DNA of 64,000 bases from an uncultured Chloroflexia bacterium (GTDB lineage Bacteria; Chloroflexota; Limnocylindria; Limnocylindrales; CSP1-4). Positions within the stretch are counted from its first letter, which is position 1. Every line of letters starts with the position of its first letter. Shown here in pieces: positions 40,726 through 63,058 of the stretch. A program made the position numbers and the translations under genes. The stretch is from contig CAWFMQ010000003.1 in the NCBI GenBank assembly GCA_963816905.1, forward strand, positions 48,887 to 112,886. The letters are read 5' to 3'. The notes beneath the pieces were generated by a model. The model had not been told where the DNA came from, did not search any database, and was given only the letters and a program-made list of their open reading frames with translations.

Positions 40726-41859
40726 TCAGGCGCTGGGTGCCCCGTCCTCGACGACCTCGGGTCGCGGCTCGACCTTGTTGCGCAGCAGGGTCGCCAGCCC
40801 TCGCGAGGACGGCGACGCCTCCAGGATCATGACGAGCCCGATCGTCAGCGGCACGGCCAGGAGCGCGCCGGCCGCGCCGAGGATCCATGCCCACGCGATG
40901 ATCGAGATGAAGACGACCAGCGGGCTCAGGTTGAGCTCGTTTCCCATGACCAGCGGCTGGAGCAGATGGTCCTGCGCGAAGTTGATGACGGCGTACCCGA
41001 TCACGACGATCGCCGCCGCGACGAGTCCGCCATCGAGGAGCGCGAGGATGGTCGGCGGGACGAGGGCGATGATGAAACCGACGTTCGGGACGAAGCTCGC
41101 GGCGAAGACCAGGAATGACCAGAGCGCCGGGAACGGCACGCCGACCACCCAGAGGAGCGCGTAGACGAGCACAGCCGCGAACACCCCGAGCAGGGCGCGG
41201 ACGACCAGGTACCGTCGCAGATCTGTTCCGAACCGCTCCACCCCGACGAGCAGCGCGTGTCGTTCGCCGAATGCCGCCTCCGCGCGCCGGCGGAGCCCCG
41301 CAGCGTCGGCGAGCGCGTAGAGCATCGTGAACGCGAGCACGAAGATCGCCGCGCCGGTGCCGGAGACAGCGGACGCGACGGGCCGGATGAAGGAGGCGAC
41401 CTTCTCCGGCGTGATGATCGACGAGATCGCACCAGGGTCGGTGGTGATCCCGAAACCGGCCAGGTAGTCCTGCGCCGCCGAGATCAGCTCGCGCAGGCGA
41501 TCCTCGTATCGCGGGATCTGGACAACGAGTTCTCCCACCGAGAAGGCAATGATCGCGGCCGTCGCGAGGATGACCAGGAGGACGAGCGCGATCGCGGACG
41601 CCAGGGCGAAGGCATGTCGGACGCCGCGCCGCTCGATGGCGCCGACGAGGGGGGAGGCGATCAGGGCGAGGAAAAGCCCGAACACGATCGGCACGACGAG
41701 CTCCGCCACTTCGCGAAGCGCAAGCGCCGCGACAAGGACCAGCACGAACCCCGCGATCGCCGTGAGCGGGCCTGCGGGCAGGACGAGCGCGTGTCCTGCG
41801 GGCGCCTCGCCGCGCCCGTTCGCCGCAGGGTGGTCCTCGGTCCGTGTGTCAGTCGCCAT
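40726..41859 (-). CDS. AI-2E (PerM) family transporter
   Basis: 377 aa, intact; typical TM pattern. Confidence 0.85.
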   Translation of the reverse strand: MATDTRTEDHPAANGRGEAPAGHALVLPAGPLTAIAGFVLVLVAALALREVAELVVPIVFGLFLALIASPLVGAIERRGVRHAFALASAIALVLLVILATAAIIAFSVGELVVQIPRYEDRLRELISAAQDYLAGFGITTDPGAISSIITPEKVASFIRPVASAVSGTGAAIFVLAFTMLYALADAAGLRRRAEAAFGERHALLVGVERFGTDLRRYLVVRALLGVFAAVLVYALLWVVGVPFPALWSFLVFAASFVPNVGFIIALVPPTILALLDGGLVAAAIVVIGYAVINFAQDHLLQPLVMGNELNLSPLVVFISIIAWAWILGAAGALLAVPLTIGLVMILEASPSSRGLATLLRNKVEPRPEVVEDGAPSA

Positions 41860-41894: not shown

Positions 41895-42008
41895 TCAGCT
41901 GAGCTTGACCGCGCCGCCAAACGCCACCATCTCGCCCGGCCCGTTCCCGCCGATGTCGGACGAATCGAAGCGCGGACCAGTGGCGAGAGGCGCGTTCAGA
42001 TCGGACAC
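41895..42008 (-). CDS. candidate 37-aa small ORF upstream of the AI-2E gene
   Basis: GGGAGGG is 7 nt upstream of the GTG at 42008. VSDLNAPLATGPRFDSSDIGGNGPGEMVAFGGAVKLS*. It ends 36 nt before the transporter ATG. No homology known to me. Confidence 0.3.
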   Translation of the reverse strand: MSDLNAPLATGPRFDSSDIGGNGPGEMVAFGGAVKLS

Positions 42009-42514: not shown

Positions 42515-43193
42515 TCAGCCCGTGATCGCCGCGATCCCCTGCCCGATGAGCGCAGTCCCCAGGACGACGCAGAGCACGCTCATGACCGTGGCGTTGTTGG
42601 AGACGAGCCAGGACTTCATCTCGTCAAGGAAGCTTCCTTGCGCGATCTCCTGCTGCGAGGTAGTTGAGGACCGGCACGGCCACAGACAGACTGGCAACGA
42701 CGACGAAGACGAGGAGCCCTGCCAGGGCGTCGACGCCCGTTGCCCCACTCGCGGCGATTGCCAGCGCCGCCGCGATCGTCAGGGCAAGGTTCTTGGGGTT
42801 GACGCCGGCGAGGAGTACCGCGATGCCGAACGATCGTCCCGCAGTCAACGAATTGATTGCCGACATGCATTTCGGCATCGCGACCGTCTTCCCCTCCGCC
42901 GAACGCCTCGCCACTGCTTCCCGGCGAGTAGCAGGAAGAGCACGCCGAACAGCAGCTGCACCAGCGCCGCGAGGTCGGACGCTCCGGTGCTCGAGCCCGA
43001 CCTTGCCCGCCTGCGCAAGCACGAGCACGACCGCCCCCACGACCGTAAGCGCGATGACCCAACCCGCGAGGAAGGCGAGGCCGTTCTGCCTCGCCCGAGC
43101 GGAGAAGAGCATGAGGATGACGGCGATGACCGGCACCGGGCCGATGGCCACGCCGATCGCCATGGGCAGCACGCTGCCAACTGCCTGACCCAC
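42515..43193 (-). pseudogene. GAP / Sap (DUF2910) family membrane protein, three frame changes
   Basis: MGQAVGSVLPMAIGVAIGPVPVIAVILMLFS... continues in ORFs 42845..43180, 42624..43193 and 42515..42748. Confidence 0.65.
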
Positions 43194-43751
43194 CCCTACG
43201 TCCTTGCCTGGTGTTGCGTCCTTTGCTCAGTGAAGCACTGGCCGCGAGACGGCGCCTCACGCTCCCGGGATGAGCCACGCGGCGTGCCGAACGATTTGGA
43301 CTGGCCGCATCCGGGGCCATGCCAGTCATTCGAGATCCGCGTGCTTTCGCTTGGCACGCGTACGGCGCGGGCCGGACCATCGGCGCGCGGACGGCTGTGG
43401 ATCGCGCCAGACGCCGCCAGGTCGCAGTGGCCGGATAACTCGGACGCTCCTGCGGTTGGCGCCGACCTGCACCCAGTACATCACGTCCAGGACCAGGCCC
43501 AGCGCGATCAACAGCCAGTCCCAGCCGGAGATACCCGTGGGCTTCCAGCTGAGCAGGTCCATGACAGTCCCGTACGGGACGAAGACGATGCCCAGCCATC
43601 GCAGAGGATGCGGGTTGTCGCCGGGAATGGTGGAGTGGGACGGTACAGTCCGCGCGCGCTGCCGGGGTTCGCGCCCGCGCTGCCGGCAGCCGTAGTCGGG
43701 CCGCTGCCCGCGCCGGGGTGCCCTTTGTTCCCCGGCGCCCTCATCCCATTC

Positions 43752-43786
43752 GGAGGATATGCCGCACCCGGCCGTGTGGTTCAATC
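43752..43786 (+). promoter_or_regulatory. conserved 35-nt box, copy 1, upstream of CHAD locus 1
   Basis: ggaggatAtgccgcacccggccgtgtggtTcaatc; 33/35 identical to 61470-61504. Confidence 0.55.
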
Positions 43787-43851
43787 CTATTTCTCGTGAT
43801 CTGTCCGGTGACGCGCGCCGGAGTCCATGAGCCCGCATGGGGATGGGAGCG

Positions 43852-44151
43852 ATGCCCGAGCTGCAAACCAGGCGCATCCGGGAGTTCGCTGCCCGCCTGC
43901 GGGTCGAGCCCGGACGTAAGGTCGGTTTCCTCACGACGTCGACCCCGGGCTCCTCGCCGGCACCGTCGCAGGTCGGCATCAGGGTGCGCCAGGCGCTCGC
44001 GGAGGGTCGACGAAGCCGAGCCCCCGAGGCCATTGCGACCGACGCCAAAGCGGTCGGGCCGACACGCAGGGCGGCCGGTAAGGGTAACAAGCCCAAGATG
44101 TCCGACAAGAGCACATGGCAACGGAACGGCCGGCGCACACGTGATGGATGA
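43852..44151 (+). CDS. small ORF overlapping the CHAD start; possible PPK2 N-terminal remnant
   Basis: ARLRVEPGRKVGFLTTSTPG resembles the LRV.PG..V.L...D...TPG N-terminus of PPK2-family kinases. The rest is unrelated. 8-nt overlap with the CHAD ATG. Confidence 0.3.
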   Translation: MPELQTRRIREFAARLRVEPGRKVGFLTTSTPGSSPAPSQVGIRVRQALAEGRRSRAPEAIATDAKAVGPTRRAAGKGNKPKMSDKSTWQRNGRRTRDG

Positions 44152-45241
44152 GAGTCGATCCCGTTCGGTCGAAGGCGGCGCGGATTCGGTCGAGCACGGA
44201 CCACCGGCAGTCGAAGTGCAATCGCCCGATCGGGAGCGCGCCATGGCCCCGGCCGATGGCGACCCGGACGCCACGTCGCCGGAGGTCGCCGCCCACGCGA
44301 CCGAGCACCCGGCGGTCGGCCGCACCCCCGATGTCCGCGCCGGCGACCCGTGGCCCGAGGCCGGGCGCAAGATCGTGCGATTCCACCTCGCCCGGATGCT
44401 CGCTCGCGTGCCCGGCGTCATCGCCGGCGAGGATCCCGAGGAGGTCCACGCGATGCGGGTTGCCACGCGCCGGATGCGCGCCGCATGGCGGGTCTTCGGC
44501 GACGGGTTCGAACGCGAGGCGACCTACAGGTACCGGGGAGAGCTCCGCGACATCGGGGCGCGGCTCGGCGCCGTGCGCGATCTCGATGTCCTGATCGAGA
44601 TCCTGGTGGCCCACGGCGAGCGCCGGAGTCGCCGCCAGCGCGTCGGCCTCGAGCCGCTCCTGGCAGCGTGGCGTGCCGAGCGGGAGGCGCGTCGCATCGA
44701 CCTCCTCGAGGTACTCGGCTCGGAGCGTTTCGCCGAGTTCGTCCGCGATTACGAGAGATACGCGGAGACACCTGGCCTCGCCGCCCGCGCCATCCCACCG
44801 CACGCTCCGGGACTCGTTCGGAACCGGATGCCGGCGACGATCTGGGCTGCCTACCAGGCCGTGTGGGCGTTCGAGGCCGATCTCCGGACGGCCGACCTGG
44901 CCACGCTGCACCAGCTTCGGATCGCGGCCAAATGGCTGCGCTATACGCTTGAGTTCGTCCGGGAGCCCCTCGAGCCGGAGGGGTCGGCGCTCATCAGGCC
45001 GGTTGTCGCCCTCCAGGATCACCTCGGGAGTCAGCACGATCAGCACGTCGCCAGGTCGCTGGCCCAGGAGTTTGCGACGTCCGCGACCCTGACCGACGCG
45101 CAGGAAAGGTCGATCGCGAAGTTCGTCGAGCAACTGGACCAGGGCGTGGAGAGCATGGGTCGATCGTTCCCGTCAACCTGGCGACCGATCGCCGCCTCTG
45201 ACTATCGGCGTCGTCTCGGACGCGCGATCGCGCTGCTGTGA
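44144..45241 (+). CDS. CHAD-domain protein
   Basis: EVHAMRVATRRMRAAWRVF...LGAVRDLDV...LHQLRIAAKWLRYTLEF. Confidence 0.85.
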   Translation: MDESRSRSVEGGADSVEHGPPAVEVQSPDRERAMAPADGDPDATSPEVAAHATEHPAVGRTPDVRAGDPWPEAGRKIVRFHLARMLARVPGVIAGEDPEEVHAMRVATRRMRAAWRVFGDGFEREATYRYRGELRDIGARLGAVRDLDVLIEILVAHGERRSRRQRVGLEPLLAAWRAEREARRIDLLEVLGSERFAEFVRDYERYAETPGLAARAIPPHAPGLVRNRMPATIWAAYQAVWAFEADLRTADLATLHQLRIAAKWLRYTLEFVREPLEPEGSALIRPVVALQDHLGSQHDQHVARSLAQEFATSATLTDAQERSIAKFVEQLDQGVESMGRSFPSTWRPIAASDYRRRLGRAIALL

Positions 45242-47064
45242 GTGGCTCGACCGAGGCCCAGATGAAGCCCGGCGTCGCGGCCGGTTCCCCACGTGGGCGC
45301 GTCGAGCGGTGGATACCCGGGGTCCGGGTCGTTCGGACCTACGACCGGACGTGGCTGCCCCGCGACCTGATCGCGGGCCTCGTGCTCGTGACACTGCTCG
45401 TCCCGCAGGGCATGGCGTACGCGGAACTCTCCGGCCTCCCCGCCATCACCGGTCTCTACACGACCGTCGTCTGCCTCGTCGCGTACGCCCTTGTGGGACC
45501 GTCGCCGATCCTCGTCCTGGGCCCTGATTCGGCGCTCGGCCCGATGATCGCCGCGACCATCCTGCCGCTCGCGTCGGGCAGCCAGGAGTTGGCAATCGCG
45601 CTCGCGGGGATGCTCGGCCTCCTCGTCGGGCTGGTGACCGTGGGGGCGGGCGTGGCAAAGCTCGGCTTCGTGGCCGACCTGCTCTCCCGCCCGGTCCGGA
45701 CCGGGTACCTCGCAGGTTTGGCAGTCACCATCTTCATCGGCCAGCTGCCGAAGCTGTTCGGGTTCAAAACGGACGCGAACGGCCTCGTGGACGAACTCGT
45801 CAAATTCCTTCAGAACCTCGACGAGACGAACCCCTGGGCGCTCGGCATCGGGCTGCTCAGTCTGGCGATCATTCTTGGCCTCAAGCGCCTGTCACCGCGG
45901 ACCCCGGGCATCCTGATCGCCGTGGTCGTTTCGATCGCGCTTTCGATCATCCTCGACCTTGCCGCCCGCGGCGTCGCAGTGATCGGCGTGCTGCCCCAGG
46001 GATTCCCGGTGCCGTCGATTCCGAACGTCCCGCTGTCCGACATCCCGCTGCTGATAGCCGGAGCGGTCGGGATCTCGCTCGTCGCCATCGGTGACACCAT
46101 CTCGACCTCCGGCGCCTTCGCCCAGCGGGGAGGCTACGAGGTCGACGCCAACCAGGAACTGGCGGGGATCGGTTCCGCAAACCTGGCCGCCGGCCTGTTC
46201 AGCGGCTTCCCGGTGAGCACGAGCGGGTCGCGGACGGCCGTGGCCGAGCAGTCCGGTGCGAAGACGCAGCTGACGGGACTGGTAGCTGCCGCGCTCGTGC
46301 TCCTGATGCTGCTGTTCGTGCCGGGCCTCGTCCAGTTCATGCCGCAGCCGGTCCTGGCGGCGCTCGTGATCGCTGCGTCATTGAGCCTGTTCGACGTCGC
46401 CGAGCTGCGCCGTCTCTATCGCGTCCGGAAAACCGAGTTCGCGCTCGCGGTCGTCTGCCTTCTCGGCGTCGCCTTTCTCGGCGTCCTCCAGGGCATCATC
46501 GTGGCGGTCGCACTGTCGGTGATCTACATCTTCAAGCGTGCCTGGACGCCGCACTCGGCAGTGCTGGGGAAGGTGCCGGGCACCCCCGGCTACCACAACG
46601 TCCATCGCTACCCGGATGCGCGGCAGATCCCCGGCCTGCTCATCATCCGCTGGTCGGCGCCGCTGTTCTTCGCCAACGCGAACCAGTTCCGCGACCTGAT
46701 CCGCGACCTCGTCAAGGCGTCGGCGACACCGCCAACATGGGTCCTTGTCGCCGCCGAGCCGATCACCGATATCGACACCACCGCCGGCGCGATGCTCGCG
46801 GATCTCGACCTCGAGCTGCACTCGGAAAACATGCACCTCGTGTTCGCAGAGCTCCAGTCGAGTGTCCGCGAGGTGATCGCGAAGTACGGGCTCGTCGAAA
46901 CCATCGAGGAGGGCCACTTCTTCCCCTCGGTGACCGAGGCGGTCAAGGCATTCCGGCGCGAGGTGGCCAGGAACGAGACGGCAGGCCCGACAGCCGGCCC
47001 GGAAGCGGCGCCGGTCGCACCGATCGCCGGAGACACGACGCCGGACGGTCCCACCGGCGCCTGA
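45238..47064 (+). CDS. SulP-family anion permease with STAS domain
   Basis: GTG at 45238 overlaps the CHAD stop (GTGA). 608 aa; LPRDLIAGLVLVTLLVPQGMAYAELSGLP... Confidence 0.9.
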   Translation: MSGSTEAQMKPGVAAGSPRGRVERWIPGVRVVRTYDRTWLPRDLIAGLVLVTLLVPQGMAYAELSGLPAITGLYTTVVCLVAYALVGPSPILVLGPDSALGPMIAATILPLASGSQELAIALAGMLGLLVGLVTVGAGVAKLGFVADLLSRPVRTGYLAGLAVTIFIGQLPKLFGFKTDANGLVDELVKFLQNLDETNPWALGIGLLSLAIILGLKRLSPRTPGILIAVVVSIALSIILDLAARGVAVIGVLPQGFPVPSIPNVPLSDIPLLIAGAVGISLVAIGDTISTSGAFAQRGGYEVDANQELAGIGSANLAAGLFSGFPVSTSGSRTAVAEQSGAKTQLTGLVAAALVLLMLLFVPGLVQFMPQPVLAALVIAASLSLFDVAELRRLYRVRKTEFALAVVCLLGVAFLGVLQGIIVAVALSVIYIFKRAWTPHSAVLGKVPGTPGYHNVHRYPDARQIPGLLIIRWSAPLFFANANQFRDLIRDLVKASATPPTWVLVAAEPITDIDTTAGAMLADLDLELHSENMHLVFAELQSSVREVIAKYGLVETIEEGHFFPSVTEAVKAFRREVARNETAGPTAGPEAAPVAPIAGDTTPDGPTGA

Positions 47065-59076: not shown

Positions 59077-59166
59077 CGAGTCGATCGGCCGGGGCCGTCA
59101 CGCACCTGTGCCTGCCGTTGCGTGGCGGATCGGAGGCACGTCGTTTCCGCGAGAAGGTCGACCGGG

Positions 59167-59430
59167 ACGTGGCAGGATCCCGTCGCAGTCGTCTCCGGCT
59201 GAGATCGTCTGACCCGGCGGTGAGGTCGGACAGCTCGCTCGCCCGGTGCGCGCGACGGGATCCTGCGGCTGGAGTCGCCGCGCACGACCGCTCCAGCATT
59301 GCCGGTCGCCGACCTTCCAGTTGGCCGCGGCCGTACGCCCGAGCCCAAGGGGCGGGGCGTCCGACAGTTTGTCCTCGCGAGGGGAGTCCGTCATGACGAT
59401 CTGTCATCCGCTGGAGGCCCACTGGGCCGG
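59167..59430 (+). repeat. hairpin-rich non-coding element, copy 1 (candidate structured RNA)
   Basis: Direct repeat of 60313-60576. Nested stems 59173-59186/59252-59265, 59195-59203/59238-59246, 59208-59214/59224-59230, 59393-59397/59403-59407. Confidence 0.85.
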
Positions 59431-59550: not shown

Positions 59551-60219
59551 ATGAGCGAGGGAAGCAAGCACGTGGTCCTGGCAATCTTCCGGGACGAGGC
59601 GGCCGCGGACGCGGCAGCCGAGGGGCTCAAGGGCTGGGAGCAGGCGAGCGACAAGAGCATCAGGCTGGACGCCGTGGGCATCCTGGTGCTCGACGAGCAC
59701 GGCGACATCAAGGCGGACAAGGTGGGCCACCGCACCAGCGGAAAGGGAGCCGGGATCGGGCTGGTCCTGGCGATGCTGACCCCGATCGGGCTGGCCGGCG
59801 GGATCATCGGCGGCGGCATCCTCGGTGCGCTGCATCACAAGGGCCTCGGCCTCTCGGACGGGGATCGCGAGCGCCTTGCCAGCGAACTGCAGGGCGGCAG
59901 GGCCGCGGTGGGCGTACTCGCCGAGTGGTACGAATCGGACGCCATCTCGGCCAAGCTTGCCGAACTCGGCGGCATTCCGGAGGTCCACGCCCTCGACGAC
60001 GAGTCGGTCGCCGAGGTCGACGCAGCCGCCGAGGACGCTCCGGCCGCCGAGGTCGACGCTGCCGCCGACGCCGCTCCGGCCGCCGCCGACGCTCCGTCCG
60101 CCGACCCGGCTCCGGCCGCCCAGGCCGCCGAGGCCGCCGACCCGGCTCCGGCCGCGGAGGCCGACGCTCCGGCCGCCGACCCGGCTCCGGCCGCGGAGGC
60201 CGACGCTCCGTCCGCCTGA
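59551..60219 (+). CDS. DUF1269-like protein with Ala/Pro/Asp-rich repetitive tail
   Basis: GGAGGAAGCG precedes the ATG. VVLAIFRDEAAADAAAEGLKGWE...GKGAGIGLVLAML...HHKGLGLSDGDRERLASELQGGRAAVGVL. Confidence 0.75.
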   Translation: MSEGSKHVVLAIFRDEAAADAAAEGLKGWEQASDKSIRLDAVGILVLDEHGDIKADKVGHRTSGKGAGIGLVLAMLTPIGLAGGIIGGGILGALHHKGLGLSDGDRERLASELQGGRAAVGVLAEWYESDAISAKLAELGGIPEVHALDDESVAEVDAAAEDAPAAEVDAAADAAPAAADAPSADPAPAAQAAEAADPAPAAEADAPAADPAPAAEADAPSA

Positions 60220-60312
60220 CGCCGAACAGGCCCGAGGTCGATCAGGTCGATCAGGTCGGGCCGGAGGGCCGCCCGGGATTGACCCGAGCGCCATCGTCAT
60301 CGTTCGGCCGAA

Positions 60313-60576
60313 ACGTGGCAGGATCCCGTCGCAGCGTCCCCAGGTGAGTTCATCTGACCCAGCGGGGAGGTCGGACAGCTCGCTCACCTGGTGCGCGCGA
60401 CGGGATCCTGTTGGCTGGAACCGCCGTGCACGACGGCTACAGCATGGCCGATCCGACCATCCGTGGTTGGTGTCGGCCCCCGCCCAGTCCCCCTGGTCGG
60501 GCGTCGCGGAATTGTGTCCGCCCTCCTGCGTCGTGTCATTACGATTCGTAATCCGGGCCCGTCCGCCGGGGCCCGG
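60313..60576 (+). repeat. hairpin-rich non-coding element, copy 2
   Basis: About 85% identical to copy 1 over the first ~150 nt (hand count: 128 matches, 17 mismatches, 4 gap positions); patchier afterwards. It ends at the stop codon of the convergent response-regulator gene. Confidence 0.85.
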
Positions 60577-61356
60577 TCAGTCGAGCTGCTCCCGAGCTTC
60601 CTCCGTCGTGTCCCAGCCCTGGTTCGAGAAGGTGGGGATGAACCGGTAGCCTCGCCCGGGTACCGTGGCGATGAAGCGCGGACGCCGGTAGTCGTTCTGG
60701 AGCTTGATGCGCAGGCTGCGCACGTGGCGGTCCACGATGTTGCTCTCGGACATGAAGTCGGTGCCCCAGATGGCATCGATGATCTCGTCCCGGGTCACCA
60801 CGCGCCCCGCCCGACTGGCGAGGAGGTACAGCAGGCTCTGCTCGATGCCGCTGAGGTGGATGACCGAGTCACCGGCGCGCACCACACGATTGACGATGTC
60901 GATCTCGATCTCGCCGAGCCGGATGGTTGGGATGATCGGGAGATCCGTCCCGGACGCGCGGCGGCTGATGACGACGGACCGCGCGAGCAGCTCTTCCGGG
61001 GAGAACGGCACGGTCAGGATGTCGTCGACCCCGAGATCGAAGGCCTTGAGCTTCGTCTGCAGGTCACCGCGTCGTGTCAGGCCCAGGACCGGCGTCCGAC
61101 TCTGCCGCAGGGTGTTCGAGGCGCCGAGCCGTCGCAGCAGCACGGCACTGTCCCCGCGGTCCATGTCGACCACGCCCAGGTGGGGGCGCCAGTGGGCGAG
61201 GATTGCCTCCGCCTCCGCGAAATCGGTCGCCGCCCGGACCACGAACAGGCCGTGATTGAGCGTCAGCTGAATGAGGTCCACGAGCAGGGGATGATCGTGG
61301 AGGACGAGAGCCCTGCGCGCCTCAACCGCATCCGGATTCACGTGGTCGACAGTCAT
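60577..61356 (-). CDS. OmpR/PhoB-family response regulator, orphan, atypical receiver
   Basis: wHTH (ESNIVDRHVRSLRIKL...VPGRGYRF). The receiver has HD instead of the acidic pair and TVPF instead of TKPF. No histidine kinase gene is adjacent. Confidence 0.9.
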   Translation of the reverse strand: MTVDHVNPDAVEARRALVLHDHPLLVDLIQLTLNHGLFVVRAATDFAEAEAILAHWRPHLGVVDMDRGDSAVLLRRLGASNTLRQSRTPVLGLTRRGDLQTKLKAFDLGVDDILTVPFSPEELLARSVVISRRASGTDLPIIPTIRLGEIEIDIVNRVVRAGDSVIHLSGIEQSLLYLLASRAGRVVTRDEIIDAIWGTDFMSESNIVDRHVRSLRIKLQNDYRRPRFIATVPGRGYRFIPTFSNQGWDTTEEAREQLD

Positions 61357-61469
61357 GGTTCGCCGCTCACAACGTGCCGAAACGCCCGATACGACCGCAT
61401 TCTACCCCCGCGGTGCAGTCATTCAAGTAACAGGGTGACGCTGTCGGAGCGCGCACCATCCTCCCAAAT

Positions 61470-61504
61470 GGAGGATGTGCCGCACCCGGCCGTGTGGTCC
61501 AATC
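61470..61504 (+). promoter_or_regulatory. conserved 35-nt box, copy 2, in the divergent regulator/CHAD intergenic region
   Basis: ggaggatGtgccgcacccggccgtgtggtCcaatc. It is preceded by catcctcc, which pairs with ggaggatg (8-bp hairpin, 61457-61477). Confidence 0.55.
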
Positions 61505-61639
61505 GTGCGCCTGGAAAGCAGCACAGCGTGCGGGTCGGTACCATCAGCGCGCGAGGTGCCGGACGGTTCGAGGCGAGCAGATTGCGGACGATGGACCGGT
61601 AGCTGCCCGACGCAGCGACGGGAGGAAAGGAGCGGAAGC

Positions 61640-61804
61640 ATGCCATCCATGAGCGAGCCGGTCTGGACTGCGCTGAGCACCGACGCGCTCAAGGCACACG
61701 GAGTCGGTCAGTCCCAGGGACTGAGCGCCGCCGAGGACCTGCTGCAGATCCGGACAATCGAGAGGCCGGACCCGGCATTCGTCCCGACATCGGTTCCGGC
61801 ATGA
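61640..61804 (+). CDS. 54-aa ORF resembling a P-type ATPase N-terminal (Cation_ATPase_N) segment
   Basis: GGAGGAAAGGAG upstream. VWTALSTDALKAHGVGQSQGLSAAEDLL fits W.ALS.....LG.....GLS..EA. ATGA overlap with the CHAD gene. Confidence 0.45.
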   Translation: MPSMSEPVWTALSTDALKAHGVGQSQGLSAAEDLLQIRTIERPDPAFVPTSVPA

Positions 61805-63058
61805 GCAGCAGCGCTGCCGGGCACCCGGCCGAGCCGCCGCCCGACCCCGCCCGACCTCAGGCGGTCTCATCGATTCCGCCACCAGCGGCCGAACCGTCGA
61901 ACGATGCCCCGCGGCCCTACGCGGTCTCATCCGTTGCGCCACCGGCTACCGAGTCACCATCCGACACCGCGCGGCCCCACGCCGTCTCATCGATTCCGCC
62001 ACCAGCGGCCGAACCGCTCGAACGATGCCCCGCGGCCCCACGCAGTCCCGTCGGTTCCGCCACCGGCTACCGAGCCACCATCCGACGCCACTCGACCTCA
62101 GGCAGCCACGGCCGGGCCACCGGGTCCGGTTCGCAGCCTGGAGATCCGGGGCGACGAGCTCTGGGCCGTCGCCGGCCGCAAGATCCTCGGATTCCACCTG
62201 GAACGCATGCTCCAGCGCGTGCCCGGGATCGTCGAGGGCGGCGGGGATTCAGAGGATGTGCACCAGATGCGCCTCTCCACCCGGCGGATGCGTGCCGCCT
62301 GGCGCGTCTTCGATGACAGCTACGATCCCGAGACCAGGAAGCGGTGCATCAATGACCTGCGCGCGATCGGCCGTGCGTTGGGTGCCGTGCGCGACCTCGA
62401 TGTCCGGCTCGAGATCTTGGCCGCCCACCGGCAGCGGCGATCGCGTCGCGGGCGCATCCGCCTGGAGCCGCTGGCGGCGGCGTGGCGCAGCGAGCGCGAA
62501 GCGCGACACGCGGAGCTCGCGGACCTGCTGCACGGCGCCCCGTTCGGGTCGTTCGTAGAGGAGTATCGCTGGCTGACGACTCCGGTATCGCTGGGGCTCG
62601 TGCCGGATGTGCCCTATACGCCGGCAAGCGTGCGACAGCGGGTCGCGTCCCGCATCTGGCAGGCCTACGAGGCGGTCTGGGCCTTCGACGGGCGGGTGGA
62701 TGGCGCCGACATCACCACGCTGCACGAGCTGCGCATCGCGGCAAAGCGGTTGCGGTACACGCTGGAATTCGCCCGCCTCCCGCTCGAGCCAGAGGCCGGT
62801 GCCCTGATCCGCCGGGTCGTGGCGCTCCAGGATCAACTGGGCGACGTACATGATCTCGACCTCGCCGCCCACCACGCCCGCGAATTCGTCGAGGCCCGAC
62901 CGGGGATGGAACGCGACGAGCGTCGTGCCGTCGGCGTCCTTGTCACCACCCTCGATCAACGCGTGGCCCGGTTGAGCGGGTCGCTCGGGCCGAGGTGGCG
63001 CGAGGTGTGTGGCGCCGGATTCCGGGGCCGCCTGGGACGCGGGCTCGGCAGGCTCTGA
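61801..63058 (+). pseudogene. CHAD-domain protein with repetitive Pro-rich N-terminus; single-base insertion at 62017
   Basis: ATG at 61801. DVHQMRLSTRRMRAAWRVF...LGAVRDLDV...LHELRIAAKRLRYTLEF lies in the frame of ORF 61904..63058. Confidence 0.8.
61861..62101. repeat. 2 x ~120-nt tandem repeat (4 x 21-aa units) in the CHAD N-terminus
   Basis: 61861-61980 versus 61981-62101. The second copy has gaaccgCtcgaacg where the first has gaaccgtcgaacg. Confidence 0.9.

What the first reader, a model, noticed from the sequence alone, without database searches (positions are those of the whole stretch)
43752..43830. 35-nt box, 33/35 identical, upstream of both CHAD loci
GGAGGAT(A/G)TGCCGCACCCGGCCGTGTGGT(T/C)CAATC occurs at 43752-43786 and 61470-61504. 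Both copies are on the + strand, 66 and 136 nt upstream of a small ORF that overlaps a CHAD gene. Flanking sequence is otherwise unrelated. Copy 2 lies in the divergent intergenic region shared with the orphan OmpR-type regulator gene, so the box may be that regulator's operator. It contains a GTGC-C-GCAC palindrome and can form a CCGCAC/GUGUGG stem with a G-U pair, which exists only on the + strand. It also spans a start codon (ATG 43759 / GTG 61477) opening uORFs that share MPHPAVW(F/S)N before diverging (23 and 41 codons), though the GGAGGA-to-start spacing is only 1-2 nt.
Basis: seen in the sequence. Interest (0 to 1): 0.6.

Follow-up and report, generated by a model that had tools for sequence, protein, structure and literature searches.

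The report
MalT-type activator promoter, two copies
The repeated 35-nt box is the core of a promoter that most likely depends on a MalT-like activator; the same promoter type sits in front of polyphosphate and stress genes in related soil Chloroflexota and was already described in Actinoplanes, so it is useful for annotation but not a new mechanism.

Summary
The box occurs exactly twice in the window (43752-43786 and 61470-61504, + strand, 33/35 identical, 0 expected by chance), and both copies lie upstream of CHAD genes.

Each box is the 3' two-thirds of a rigid, gapless motif of about 45 nt. The motif has an inverted hexamer pair, TC(A/C)TCC-N5-GGAGGA, then 19 nt, then an extended -10-like TGnT..A.T.

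I found 38 full instances (46 including weaker ones) in related Chloroflexota (Limnocylindria-like) MAGs and metagenome contigs. They point at PPK2, P-type ATPase, CHAD, Ppx/GppA, an NMT1/SsuA-like gene, a CMD-like gene and DUF1269 genes. They repeatedly flank the gene of a MalT-like LuxR (LAL/STAND) regulator.

The dyad, its spacing and its position match the MalT box published for Actinoplanes sp. SE50/110 (TCATCC-5nt-GGATGA over the -35) and the E. coli core GGA(T/G)GA.

There is no support for an RNA structure, a conserved uORF or a link to the neighbouring OmpR-type regulator. The small ORFs after the boxes are deletion relics of a PPK2 gene and a P-type ATPase gene.

Verdict: a new member of a known kind, of modest interest. 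No transcription start site or binding data exist.

The parts
43741..43757 (+). Inverted hexamer dyad TCATCC-CATTC-GGAGGA (predicted MalT-like activator box, copy 1). Only its 3' half lies inside the reported box.
   Evidence: Pattern hit. Columns 7-23 of the 38-sequence gapless alignment, where T7, C8, C11, C12, G18, G22 and A23 are invariant. Same architecture as the Actinoplanes motif TCATCC-5nt-GGATGA.
43752..43786 (+). The reported 35-nt box, copy 1. It comprises the proximal half-site GGAGGA, the -35 position and spacer, and the extended -10.
43777..43785 (+). Extended -10-like element TGGTTCAAT (TGn + T..A.T). The predicted transcription start is about 43791-43793.
   Evidence: Alignment columns 43-51: T43 and G44 are invariant; T46, A49 and T51 are at least 90% conserved. 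The distance from the dyad is the same in all 38 sites. The start is inferred from the -10 position and from the 34.4 +/- 1 nt rule of PMC7567727. It has not been mapped.
61459..61475 (+). Inverted hexamer dyad TCCTCC-CAAAT-GGAGGA (copy 2), a perfect palindrome.
   Evidence: (matches on both strands).
61470..61504 (+). The reported 35-nt box, copy 2.
61495..61503 (+). Extended -10-like element TGGTCCAAT. The predicted transcription start is about 61509-61511.
   Evidence: inference as for copy 1.
43852..44151 (+). 99-codon ORF, a relic of the N-terminus of a PPK2 gene. It is the first reading frame after box 1.
   Evidence: 13/24 identity to the first 24 residues of PPK2 from L107. In relatives a full PPK2 and/or P-type ATPase gene lies between the motif and CHAD.
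44147..45241 (+). CHAD-domain gene 1 (a GTG at 44144 is an alternative start).
   Evidence: Pfam PF05235, E=5e-46; orthologues at 60-81% identity.
45238..47064 (+). SulP/STAS anion permease gene, overlapping the CHAD stop codon.
   Evidence: Pfam PF00916 (E=4e-92) and PF01740. The order CHAD-SulP is the same in relatives.
61640..61804 (+). 54-codon ORF, a relic of a P-type ATPase gene: the N-terminal segment, possibly fused to the C-terminal tail.
   Evidence: Local alignment of residues 4-32 to ATPase N-termini scores 56-64, against shuffles of mean 27-30, sd 5-6, max 48-53. The C-terminal part is weaker, 31-37 against a mean of about 24, below the best shuffle.
61805..63058 (+). CHAD-domain gene 2. 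The open frame is given; the true start is uncertain, since an ATG at 61801 in another frame overlaps the relic's stop codon.
   Evidence: Pfam PF05235, E=7.5e-40; 45% identity to CHAD1.
60577..61356 (-). OmpR-type response regulator gene, divergent from box 2. Probably not the binder of the box. It has its own sigma-70-like promoter at 61426-61399.
   Evidence: Pfam; no conserved adjacency to the motif in relatives; promoter scan.

Best explanation
Each box is the core of an activator-dependent promoter. A 17-bp inverted dyad, TC(A/C)TCC-N5-GGAGGA, abuts the -35 position and is the predicted binding site of a MalT-like LuxR-family STAND (LAL) activator. Exactly 19 nt further on lies an extended -10-like element, TGnT..A.T. 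There is no recognisable -35 hexamer, so RNA polymerase would need the bound activator. Transcription would then start about 6-7 nt after the box, near 43792 and 61510, and run into the CHAD(-SulP) operons. The ancestral operon was motif - PPK2/P-type ATPase - CHAD - SulP. In this genome, deletions removed PPK2 and the ATPase from both paralogous operons and left short relic ORFs, but the promoter was kept. Shown here: the motif, its rigidity, its orientation, its target genes, and its repeated adjacency to MalT-like genes in relatives. Inferred: that the MalT-like protein binds the dyad, that it activates, and where transcription starts.
For: (1) Rigid motif. An HMM seeded on the two boxes and a few relatives found 23 unique sites in CHAD loci of related genomes, 21 of them without gaps. 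An alignment of 38 full sites is gapless; T7, C8, C11, C12, G18, G22, A23, T43 and G44 are invariant, and G19, G21, G25, T46, A49 and T51 are at least 90% conserved.
(2) Unbiased test. A pattern scan of metagenome contigs, with no protein anchor, returned 31 contigs, most of about 70% GC. Sites there precede PPK2, Ppx/GppA (TIGR03706, 6e-62), an NMT1/SsuA-like gene, a CMD-like ORF, a small membrane-protein gene and further small unassigned ORFs; DUF1269 targets come from the related genome loci L011 and L012. Several contigs carry 2-3 sites.
(3) Orientation. In 35 of 46 sites the first long same-strand ORF starts within 140 nt.
(4) Regulator adjacency. A MalT-like gene lies directly beside sites in L006, L011, L012, L031, L106, L107, L114 and L118, either divergent from its start or at its 3' end. 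Its domains are AAA_16/22, WHD_MalT and GerE. It matches the E. coli MalT structure 8bob at 5e-35 and NCBIfam MalT at 244 bits, below the equivalog cut-off.
(5) Published precedent. In Actinoplanes sp. SE50/110 the motif TCATCC-5nt-GGATGA overlaps the -35 of 17 mapped starts, which lie 34.4 +/- 1 nt from the motif's 3' end, and transcription depends on MalT. The E. coli core is GGA(T/G)GA (PMC7567727). Box 1 reads TCATCC-N5-GGAGGA. Applying the 34.4-nt rule puts the conserved T..A.T hexamer at -12 to -7 and TG at -15/-14.
(6) Regulon overlap. The Actinoplanes regulon holds three DUF1269 genes, an AI-2E transporter and the arginine deiminase operon, with ppk2 in related regions. The window holds all of these gene types.
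(7) A weight matrix built without the window's copies scores them 26.0 and 22.4 bits, against a null maximum of 20.1.
(8) No sigma-70-like promoter is found on the + strand near either box.
Against: No MalT-like gene lies in the 64 kb window; the only trace is a weak GerE-domain hit at 1495-1704. No transcription start or binding data exist. No sequencing run holds the window, and metatranscriptome contigs of relatives do not cover the non-coding parts. The -10-like hexamer lacks the usual A at its second position. The two copies are also identical in the spacer, which varies between target classes, so part of their identity reflects common descent or gene conversion rather than the binding site alone. 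The other regulon-type genes in the window (DUF1269, AI-2E, arc) have no detectable site.
Confidence: 0.8

Rival explanations
1. The box is a cis-acting RNA element in the 5' UTR (a riboswitch-like leader or a hairpin that sequesters a Shine-Dalgarno sequence). It would use CCUCC/GGAGG pairing and the CCGCAC/GUGUGG stem.
For: Single-sequence folds show hairpins: AUCCUCC-loop-GGAGGAU in copy 2 and GCCGCAC/GUGUGGU in both copies, with z-scores of -1.8 to -2.8 for some sequences. Some relatives have other hairpins in the spacer.
Against: No Rfam match, even at E<=10. In the 38-site alignment the dyad pairs no better than column shuffles (78.9% against 80.7%). The central pair is unpaired in 25 of 38 sites and pair 9-21 is broken in 9. 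RNAalifold gives -0.9 kcal/mol with no covarying pair and no spacer helix. The motif has no indels, which is unusual for loops. Other folds have z-scores of +0.5 to +2. The predicted transcription start lies downstream of the box.
Confidence: 0.04
2. The box is the operator of the divergently encoded orphan OmpR-type regulator (60577-61356).
For: Copy 2 lies 113 nt from that gene's start, in the shared intergenic region. The regulator is a real Response_reg + Trans_reg_C protein.
Against: No orthologue lies next to any of the roughly 45 related sites; the best tblastn hits are 29-38% identical and elsewhere in the loci. Copy 1 has no such neighbour. From general knowledge, OmpR-family proteins bind direct repeats, whereas this is an inverted dyad matching a LuxR/MalT-type box. 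The gene has its own sigma-70-like promoter.
Confidence: 0.05
3. The two copies are a by-product of recent duplication, short-tract gene conversion, or att-like direct repeats flanking a 17.7 kb island, with no function of their own in this genome. On this reading the promoter is a fossil whose activator has been lost.
For: The spacer (columns 31-41), which varies between target classes, is 11/11 identical in the two copies. Other short high-identity patches are noted in this genome (families D6 and D13). No MalT-like gene lies in the window. Both operons have suffered deletions.
Against: Homologous sites sit at the same place relative to the same operon in many other genomes, so the element is ancestral and not an att scar. 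Orthologous sites of one target class also keep their spacer across species (L009, L060, L001), so spacer identity does not require conversion. All invariant positions of the motif are intact in both copies. No integrase or tRNA gene is present.
Confidence: 0.1
4. The box encodes a conserved leader peptide, MPHPAVW(F/S)N, translated from ATG 43759 or GTG 61477.
For: The two copies share the reading frame for 9 codons.
Against: This shared frame is a trivial result of 33/35 nucleotide identity. Homologous sites of the GGTGGAGGCG type have no start codon there. In L006 and L007 the same DNA lies outside an ORF or in a different frame. The gap between GGAGG and the start codon is 0-2 nt. The start lies upstream of the predicted transcription start.
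Confidence: 0.01

Closest known systems
MalT (ACSP50_3915) regulon of Actinoplanes sp. [quoted passage not shown] 2020, PMC7567727)
   Same: Inverted hexamers separated by 5 nt; the 5' half of box 1 is identical (TCATCC). The site abuts or overlaps the -35. The distance to the -10 and start site is compatible (34.4 +/- 1 nt). The activator is a MalT-like LuxR-family protein encoded within the cluster. Many promoters cluster in one island. Cargo overlaps: DUF1269, AI-2E transporter, arginine deiminase operon, and ppk2 in related regions.
   Different: The 3' hexamer is GGAGGA or GGTGGA rather than GGATGA. The host is Chloroflexota rather than Actinomycetota. The targets centre on polyphosphate genes (PPK2, Ppx/GppA, CHAD), a P-type ATPase, SulP and an NMT1/SsuA-like gene. 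A strongly conserved extended -10 (TGnT..A.T) is part of the motif. Nothing has been tested experimentally here, and the window itself lacks the regulator gene.
E. coli / Klebsiella MalT boxes (core GGA(T/G)GA, 5'-GGGGA(T/G)GAGG-3')
   Same: The same core hexamer, with G at the variable position. The promoter-proximal box replaces the -35 hexamer. The activator is a STAND ATPase with a C-terminal LuxR/GerE helix-turn-helix domain; the relatives' regulator matches the MalT structure 8bob at 5e-35.
   Different: According to the titles and text cited in PMC7567727, E. coli promoters use several asymmetric boxes, partly in direct repeat, rather than one dyad with a 5-nt spacer. That regulon is for maltodextrin use. 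The regulator here scores far below the MalT equivalog cut-off (244 against 537 bits).
TCCTCC-N5-GGAGGA boxes around MalT-like regulators reported by earlier agents of this scan in other genomes (e1-5093222 Chloroflexota; e1-4015163 Thermoleophilia; e1-3897016 Actinobacteria)
   Same: The same dyad, the same proposed position at the -35, and the same kind of regulator.
   Different: Those are unchecked AI notes on other genomes and are not independent evidence. Here the regulator gene is absent from the window and the targets are two relic-bearing CHAD operons.

Membership tests
MalT-type (LAL/LuxR-STAND) activator box and promoter | Two hexamers with core GGA(T/G)GA, arranged as the inverted pair TCATCC-5nt-GGATGA (Actinoplanes form) | tested here: met
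   43741-43757 reads TCATCC-CATTC-GGAGGA and 61459-61475 reads TCCTCC-CAAAT-GGAGGA. The dyad positions are invariant in 38 related sites. The central base of each hexamer is free (A, T, C or G), as in GGA(T/G)GA.
MalT-type (LAL/LuxR-STAND) activator box and promoter | The box overlaps or abuts the -35 and lies at a fixed distance (about 34-35 nt) from the transcription start; there is no consensus -35 | tested here: inconclusive
   The 22-nt distance from the dyad to a conserved TGnT..A.T element is fixed in all 38 sites. That places the dyad's 3' end at about -35. No sigma-70-type -35/-10 pair is found on the + strand. No transcription start could be mapped.
MalT-type (LAL/LuxR-STAND) activator box and promoter | A MalT-like regulator gene (NOD ATPase + MalT winged helix + SUPR/TPR + GerE HTH) in the same cluster or genome | tested here: inconclusive
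   Met in relatives: the gene lies directly beside sites in at least 8 contigs, with domains and MalT similarity shown. Not met within the 64 kb window.
MalT-type (LAL/LuxR-STAND) activator box and promoter | Regulator-dependent transcription and direct binding | not testable with these tools
   This needs EMSA or DAP-seq and reporter or knockout experiments.
Structured cis-regulatory RNA (riboswitch or leader) | A conserved secondary structure supported by covariation | tested here: not met
   pairing is no better than shuffles, there are no compensatory pairs, and the consensus energy is -0.9 kcal/mol. No Rfam hit.
OmpR-family operator of the adjacent regulator | Co-occurrence of regulator and site across genomes; tandem direct-repeat half-sites | tested here: not met
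   No orthologue lies near any related site. The site is an inverted dyad.
Dispersed repeat, mobile-element end or att site | Copies without positional bias towards gene starts; associated integrase or transposase genes | tested here: not met
   35 of 46 sites point at an ORF that starts within 140 nt. The targets form a coherent set. No tRNA gene is present. A whole-genome copy count for this organism was not possible.

The most novel reading that the evidence does not exclude
A MalT-like STAND activator, through this dyad-plus-extended -10 promoter, controls a polyphosphate and ion-homeostasis regulon (PPK2, Ppx/GppA, CHAD, P-type ATPase, SulP, NMT1/SsuA-like, DUF1269) in Limnocylindria-type Chloroflexota. 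On this reading it is the same ancient stress or dormancy island, mobile between phyla, as the 'maltose-regulated' region of Actinoplanes, whose true signal would then be energy or phosphate status rather than maltose. The window's genome would be a natural case in which the enzymes were deleted but the CHAD genes and their promoters were retained.
Probability: 0.3. Interest if true: 0.5.

Novelty: new member of a known kind. Interest (0 to 1): 0.3.

Why it matters
The result gives a usable annotation rule for an uncultured soil and sediment lineage. A 45-nt motif marks promoters of a coherent regulon and links it to a specific regulator family. It connects CHAD, PPK2 and Ppx polyphosphate genes to a MalT-like STAND sensor, which suggests what the poorly understood Actinoplanes 'MalT' island may really respond to. 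It also explains the two odd mini-ORFs as deletion relics of PPK2 and a P-type ATPase. It does not reveal a new mechanism.

Tried and rejected
- Rfam at gathering score over the window, and at E<=10 around box 1: no hits.
- tRNA or att idea, prompted by the T-loop-like GGTTCAATCC: no tRNA gene, and the loop is one base short.
- The exact 21-nt core and up to 9 substitutions in the first loci found nothing. Homology only became visible by eye and then with an HMM.
- Sequencing runs for the window: none. Metatranscriptome contigs laid on a relative's locus cover only the conserved coding part, so they give no transcription start.
- Extending the contig beyond the window's right end through an exact-protein look-up failed.
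- ECF-sigma and SigB/SigF-type promoter readings were considered and dropped. The AAC or GTTT -35 signatures are absent, and the GGAGG-to-TCAAC spacing is 19-22 nt, too long for them.
- A variable 'P2' hairpin in the spacer looked attractive in three sequences but disappeared in the 38-site alignment.
- A search for further sites in front of the window's DUF1269, AI-2E and arc genes found nothing above the null.

Full report
OBSERVATION. The degenerate 35-mer occurs exactly twice in the window, at 43752-43786 and 61470-61504. Both copies are on the + strand and none is expected by chance. The ungapped similarity extends 17 nt further upstream, giving 52 nt at 85% identity (family D9), and ends immediately after the box. 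The downstream genes are CHAD-domain genes (PF05235). The first is followed by a SulP/STAS permease gene. The CHAD paralogues share only 45% protein identity and 71-74% DNA identity, so the box is the best-conserved stretch of the two loci. Both boxes are intergenic and lie in divergent regions. Box 1 faces a minus-strand SfLAP-like membrane-protein gene. Box 2 faces the OmpR-type regulator gene.

WHAT THE LOCI WERE. CHAD orthologues at 60-81% identity are common. In their contigs the operon reads PPK2 / P-type ATPase (in either order) - CHAD - SulP. It is often preceded by a MalT-like LuxR regulator gene (AAA_16/22, WHD_MalT, GerE) and a small CMD-like ORF. The window's two small ORFs are what is left of the first genes. 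ORF 43852-44151 shares 13 of its first 24 residues with PPK2. ORF 61640-61804 aligns at residues 4-32 to the ATPase N-terminus, with scores of 56-64 against shuffles of mean 27-30 and maximum 53. Its tail weakly resembles the ATPase C-terminus. A comparable PPK2-N/ATPase-C fusion relic is seen in locus L005. Record titles place the relatives in Chloroflexota, as 'Candidatus Limnocylindrales' or uncultured Chloroflexia MAGs from Danish soils. The window's own genome is not in that collection; its best hit is 77% identical.

THE MOTIF. No exact or near-exact copy of the box exists in relatives. However, the regions upstream of the first operon gene share an architecture. An HMM seeded on 13 such sites and iterated found 23 unique sites in the CHAD loci of related genomes, 21 of them without gaps.

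I then scanned the metagenome collection with a degenerate pattern derived from the invariant columns, using no protein anchor. This returned 31 contigs. Most have about 70% GC, and several carry two or three sites. Thirty-eight full sites align with no gap:
- TC(C/A)NCC at columns 7-12, then N5, then GGNGGA at columns 18-23;
- then NG(C/T)GC;
- then a variable stretch;
- then (G)TG(G)T(C)NA(C)T at columns 42-51.
T7, C8, C11, C12, G18, G22, A23, T43 and G44 are invariant. In the window, column c corresponds to 43734+c for copy 1 and 61452+c for copy 2. The reported box therefore begins at the 3' half-site and ends one base after the last conserved block. A weight matrix built without the window's copies scores them 26.0 and 22.4 bits, against a null maximum of 20.1. 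It finds no other site in the 64 kb.

DNA SITE OR RNA STRUCTURE. The two hexamers are inverted repeats, which is why single-sequence folds show a CCUCC/GGAGG hairpin. Across the 38 sites, however, pairing is no better than in column shuffles (78.9% against 80.7%). The central pair is unpaired in 25 of 38 sites, and no pair shows compensatory change beyond chance. RNAalifold finds only the four invariant pairs, at -0.9 kcal/mol, and nothing in the spacer. Rfam has no match. The complete absence of indels fits a protein-DNA geometry. The putative uORF start is missing in sites of the GGTGGAGGCG type, and the same DNA is read in different frames, or in none, in L006 and L007.

TARGETS AND REGULATOR. 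In 35 of 46 sites (E<0.005), the first long ORF on the same strand begins within 140 nt. The targets are:
- PPK2;
- the P-type ATPase;
- CHAD directly, where the upstream genes are lost (L021, L024);
- a Ppx/GppA exopolyphosphatase (TIGR03706, 6e-62);
- an NMT1/SsuA-like protein of about 400 aa;
- a CMD-like small protein;
- DUF1269 proteins;
- a small membrane protein.

The OmpR-type regulator has no orthologue near any site. By contrast, a MalT-like regulator gene lies directly beside sites in L006, L011, L012, L031, L106, L107, L114 and L118. One site is usually divergent from its start and another overlaps its 3' end, pointing into the next gene. Weaker, partial sites lie next to it in L007/L013, L034 and L051. 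This protein matches the E. coli MalT structure 8bob at 5e-35 and the NCBIfam MalT model at 244 bits, which is below the equivalog cut-off.

COMPARISON WITH THE LITERATURE. Droste et al. 2020 (PMC7567727) found the palindrome 5'-TCATCC-5nt-GGATGA-3' in Actinoplanes sp. SE50/110. It overlaps the -35 of 17 mapped promoters, and its 3' end lies 34.4 +/- 1.0 nt from the transcription start. Deleting or overexpressing a cluster-encoded MalT-like LuxR regulator changed transcription of 40 of 51 genes. The authors relate the motif to the E. coli and Klebsiella MalT box, GGA(T/G)GA within GGGGA(T/G)GAGG.

Box 1 of the window reads TCATCC-CATTC-GGAGGA. Applying the 34.4-nt rule to column 23 puts +1 at about columns 57-59. 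The conserved T46..A49.T51 hexamer then falls at -12 to -7, and the invariant T43-G44 falls at -15/-14, an extended -10. Neither box has a sigma-70-like -35/-10 pair on the + strand, as expected for an activator-dependent promoter. The predicted starts are about 43791-43793 and 61509-61511, giving leaders of about 60 and 130 nt. The alleged uORF start at about -34 would not be transcribed from this promoter.

The Actinoplanes regulon contains three DUF1269 genes, an AI-2E transporter and the arginine deiminase / ornithine carbamoyltransferase / carbamate kinase operon, and related genomes carry ppk2 in the same region. The window also holds an AI-2E transporter gene (40726-41859, minus strand) and DUF1269 paralogues. 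According to earlier unchecked notes it holds an arc operon as well. None of these has a detectable site here.

WHY 33/35. The dyad and the -10 explain only part of the identity. The spacer columns 31-41 vary between target classes but are identical in the two copies. Orthologous sites of one class also keep their spacer across species (L009, L060, L001). Both copies derive from the same promoter class, that of the PPK2/ATPase-CHAD operon. Shared descent under class-specific constraint is therefore sufficient, and a short gene-conversion tract cannot be excluded.

LIMITS. The window contains no MalT-like gene. No sequencing run holds the window. Metatranscriptome contigs from relatives map only to the conserved coding part of the NMT1-like gene. 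Binding, activation and the transcription start are inferred. Earlier agents of this scan reached the same classification for similar dyads in other genomes. I saw those notes only after my own analysis, and they are not independent evidence.

VERDICT. It is wrong about the regulator, the RNA stem and the uORF. The element is a new member of a known kind, a MalT-type activator-dependent promoter, in Chloroflexota, with a polyphosphate-centred target set. Confidence in this reading is about 0.8 and interest is about 0.3.

Noticed in passing
L095:2921-4159 (also L100, L109, L114, L022, L060): The NMT1/SsuA-like gene of about 400 aa (N-terminus ...VSTTVPLNWNEVWFTNCPMVSANNVD...) is one of the commonest targets of the motif. 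Transcript contigs 85-99% alike to it are abundant in sediment and wetland metatranscriptomes, with summed word depth in the hundreds to thousands in 4 of 4 runs. It has no obvious signal peptide and its function is unknown.
   Followed up: partly
window 43852-44151 and 61640-61804; L005:3710-3976: The PPK2 and P-type ATPase genes were deleted independently and repeatedly from the PPK2/ATPase-CHAD-SulP operon. Each deletion left a short in-frame relic ORF and kept the promoter and CHAD. In L005 the relic joins the PPK2 N-terminus to the last transmembrane helix of the ATPase.
   Followed up: partly
window 59158-59265 and 60304-60410: Direct repeats of about 108 nt (88-90% identical) bracket the DUF1269 gene at 59551-60219 (families D6 and D13).
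   Followed up: no
window 40726-41859 (-) and 41895-42008: Pfam places the AI-2E transporter gene on the minus strand at 40726-41859 (E=7e-47). The + strand ORFs there have no Pfam match, so that note's gene assignment looks wrong.
   Followed up: partly
window 42616-43599 (-): A SfLAP (Sap, sulfolipid-1-addressing protein) family membrane-protein gene (E=6e-29 for 42624-43193) lies divergent from box 1. The long ORF 42616-43599 is in another frame, so the gene may carry a frameshift. This fits the many frameshifted genes noted in this long-read MAG.
   Followed up: no
L097:4309-4436 (-): Two complete motif copies lie in tandem, 72 nt apart, in front of one PPK2 gene.
   Followed up: no
L034, L035, L051, L027 (loci of the second CHAD paralogue class): A variant promoter class keeps the dyad and TGCGC (TCATCC-GTCAA-GGAGGATGCGC). 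Its -10 region, 2 nt further on, reads TACTCT, TAGGCT or is unclear instead of TGGTCAACT.
   Followed up: no
window 61426-61399 (-): A sigma-70-like promoter (TTGAAT-16-TAGAAT) lies in front of the OmpR-type regulator gene, about 35 nt from the dyad of box 2. The perfectly palindromic dyad could also influence this divergent promoter.
   Followed up: no
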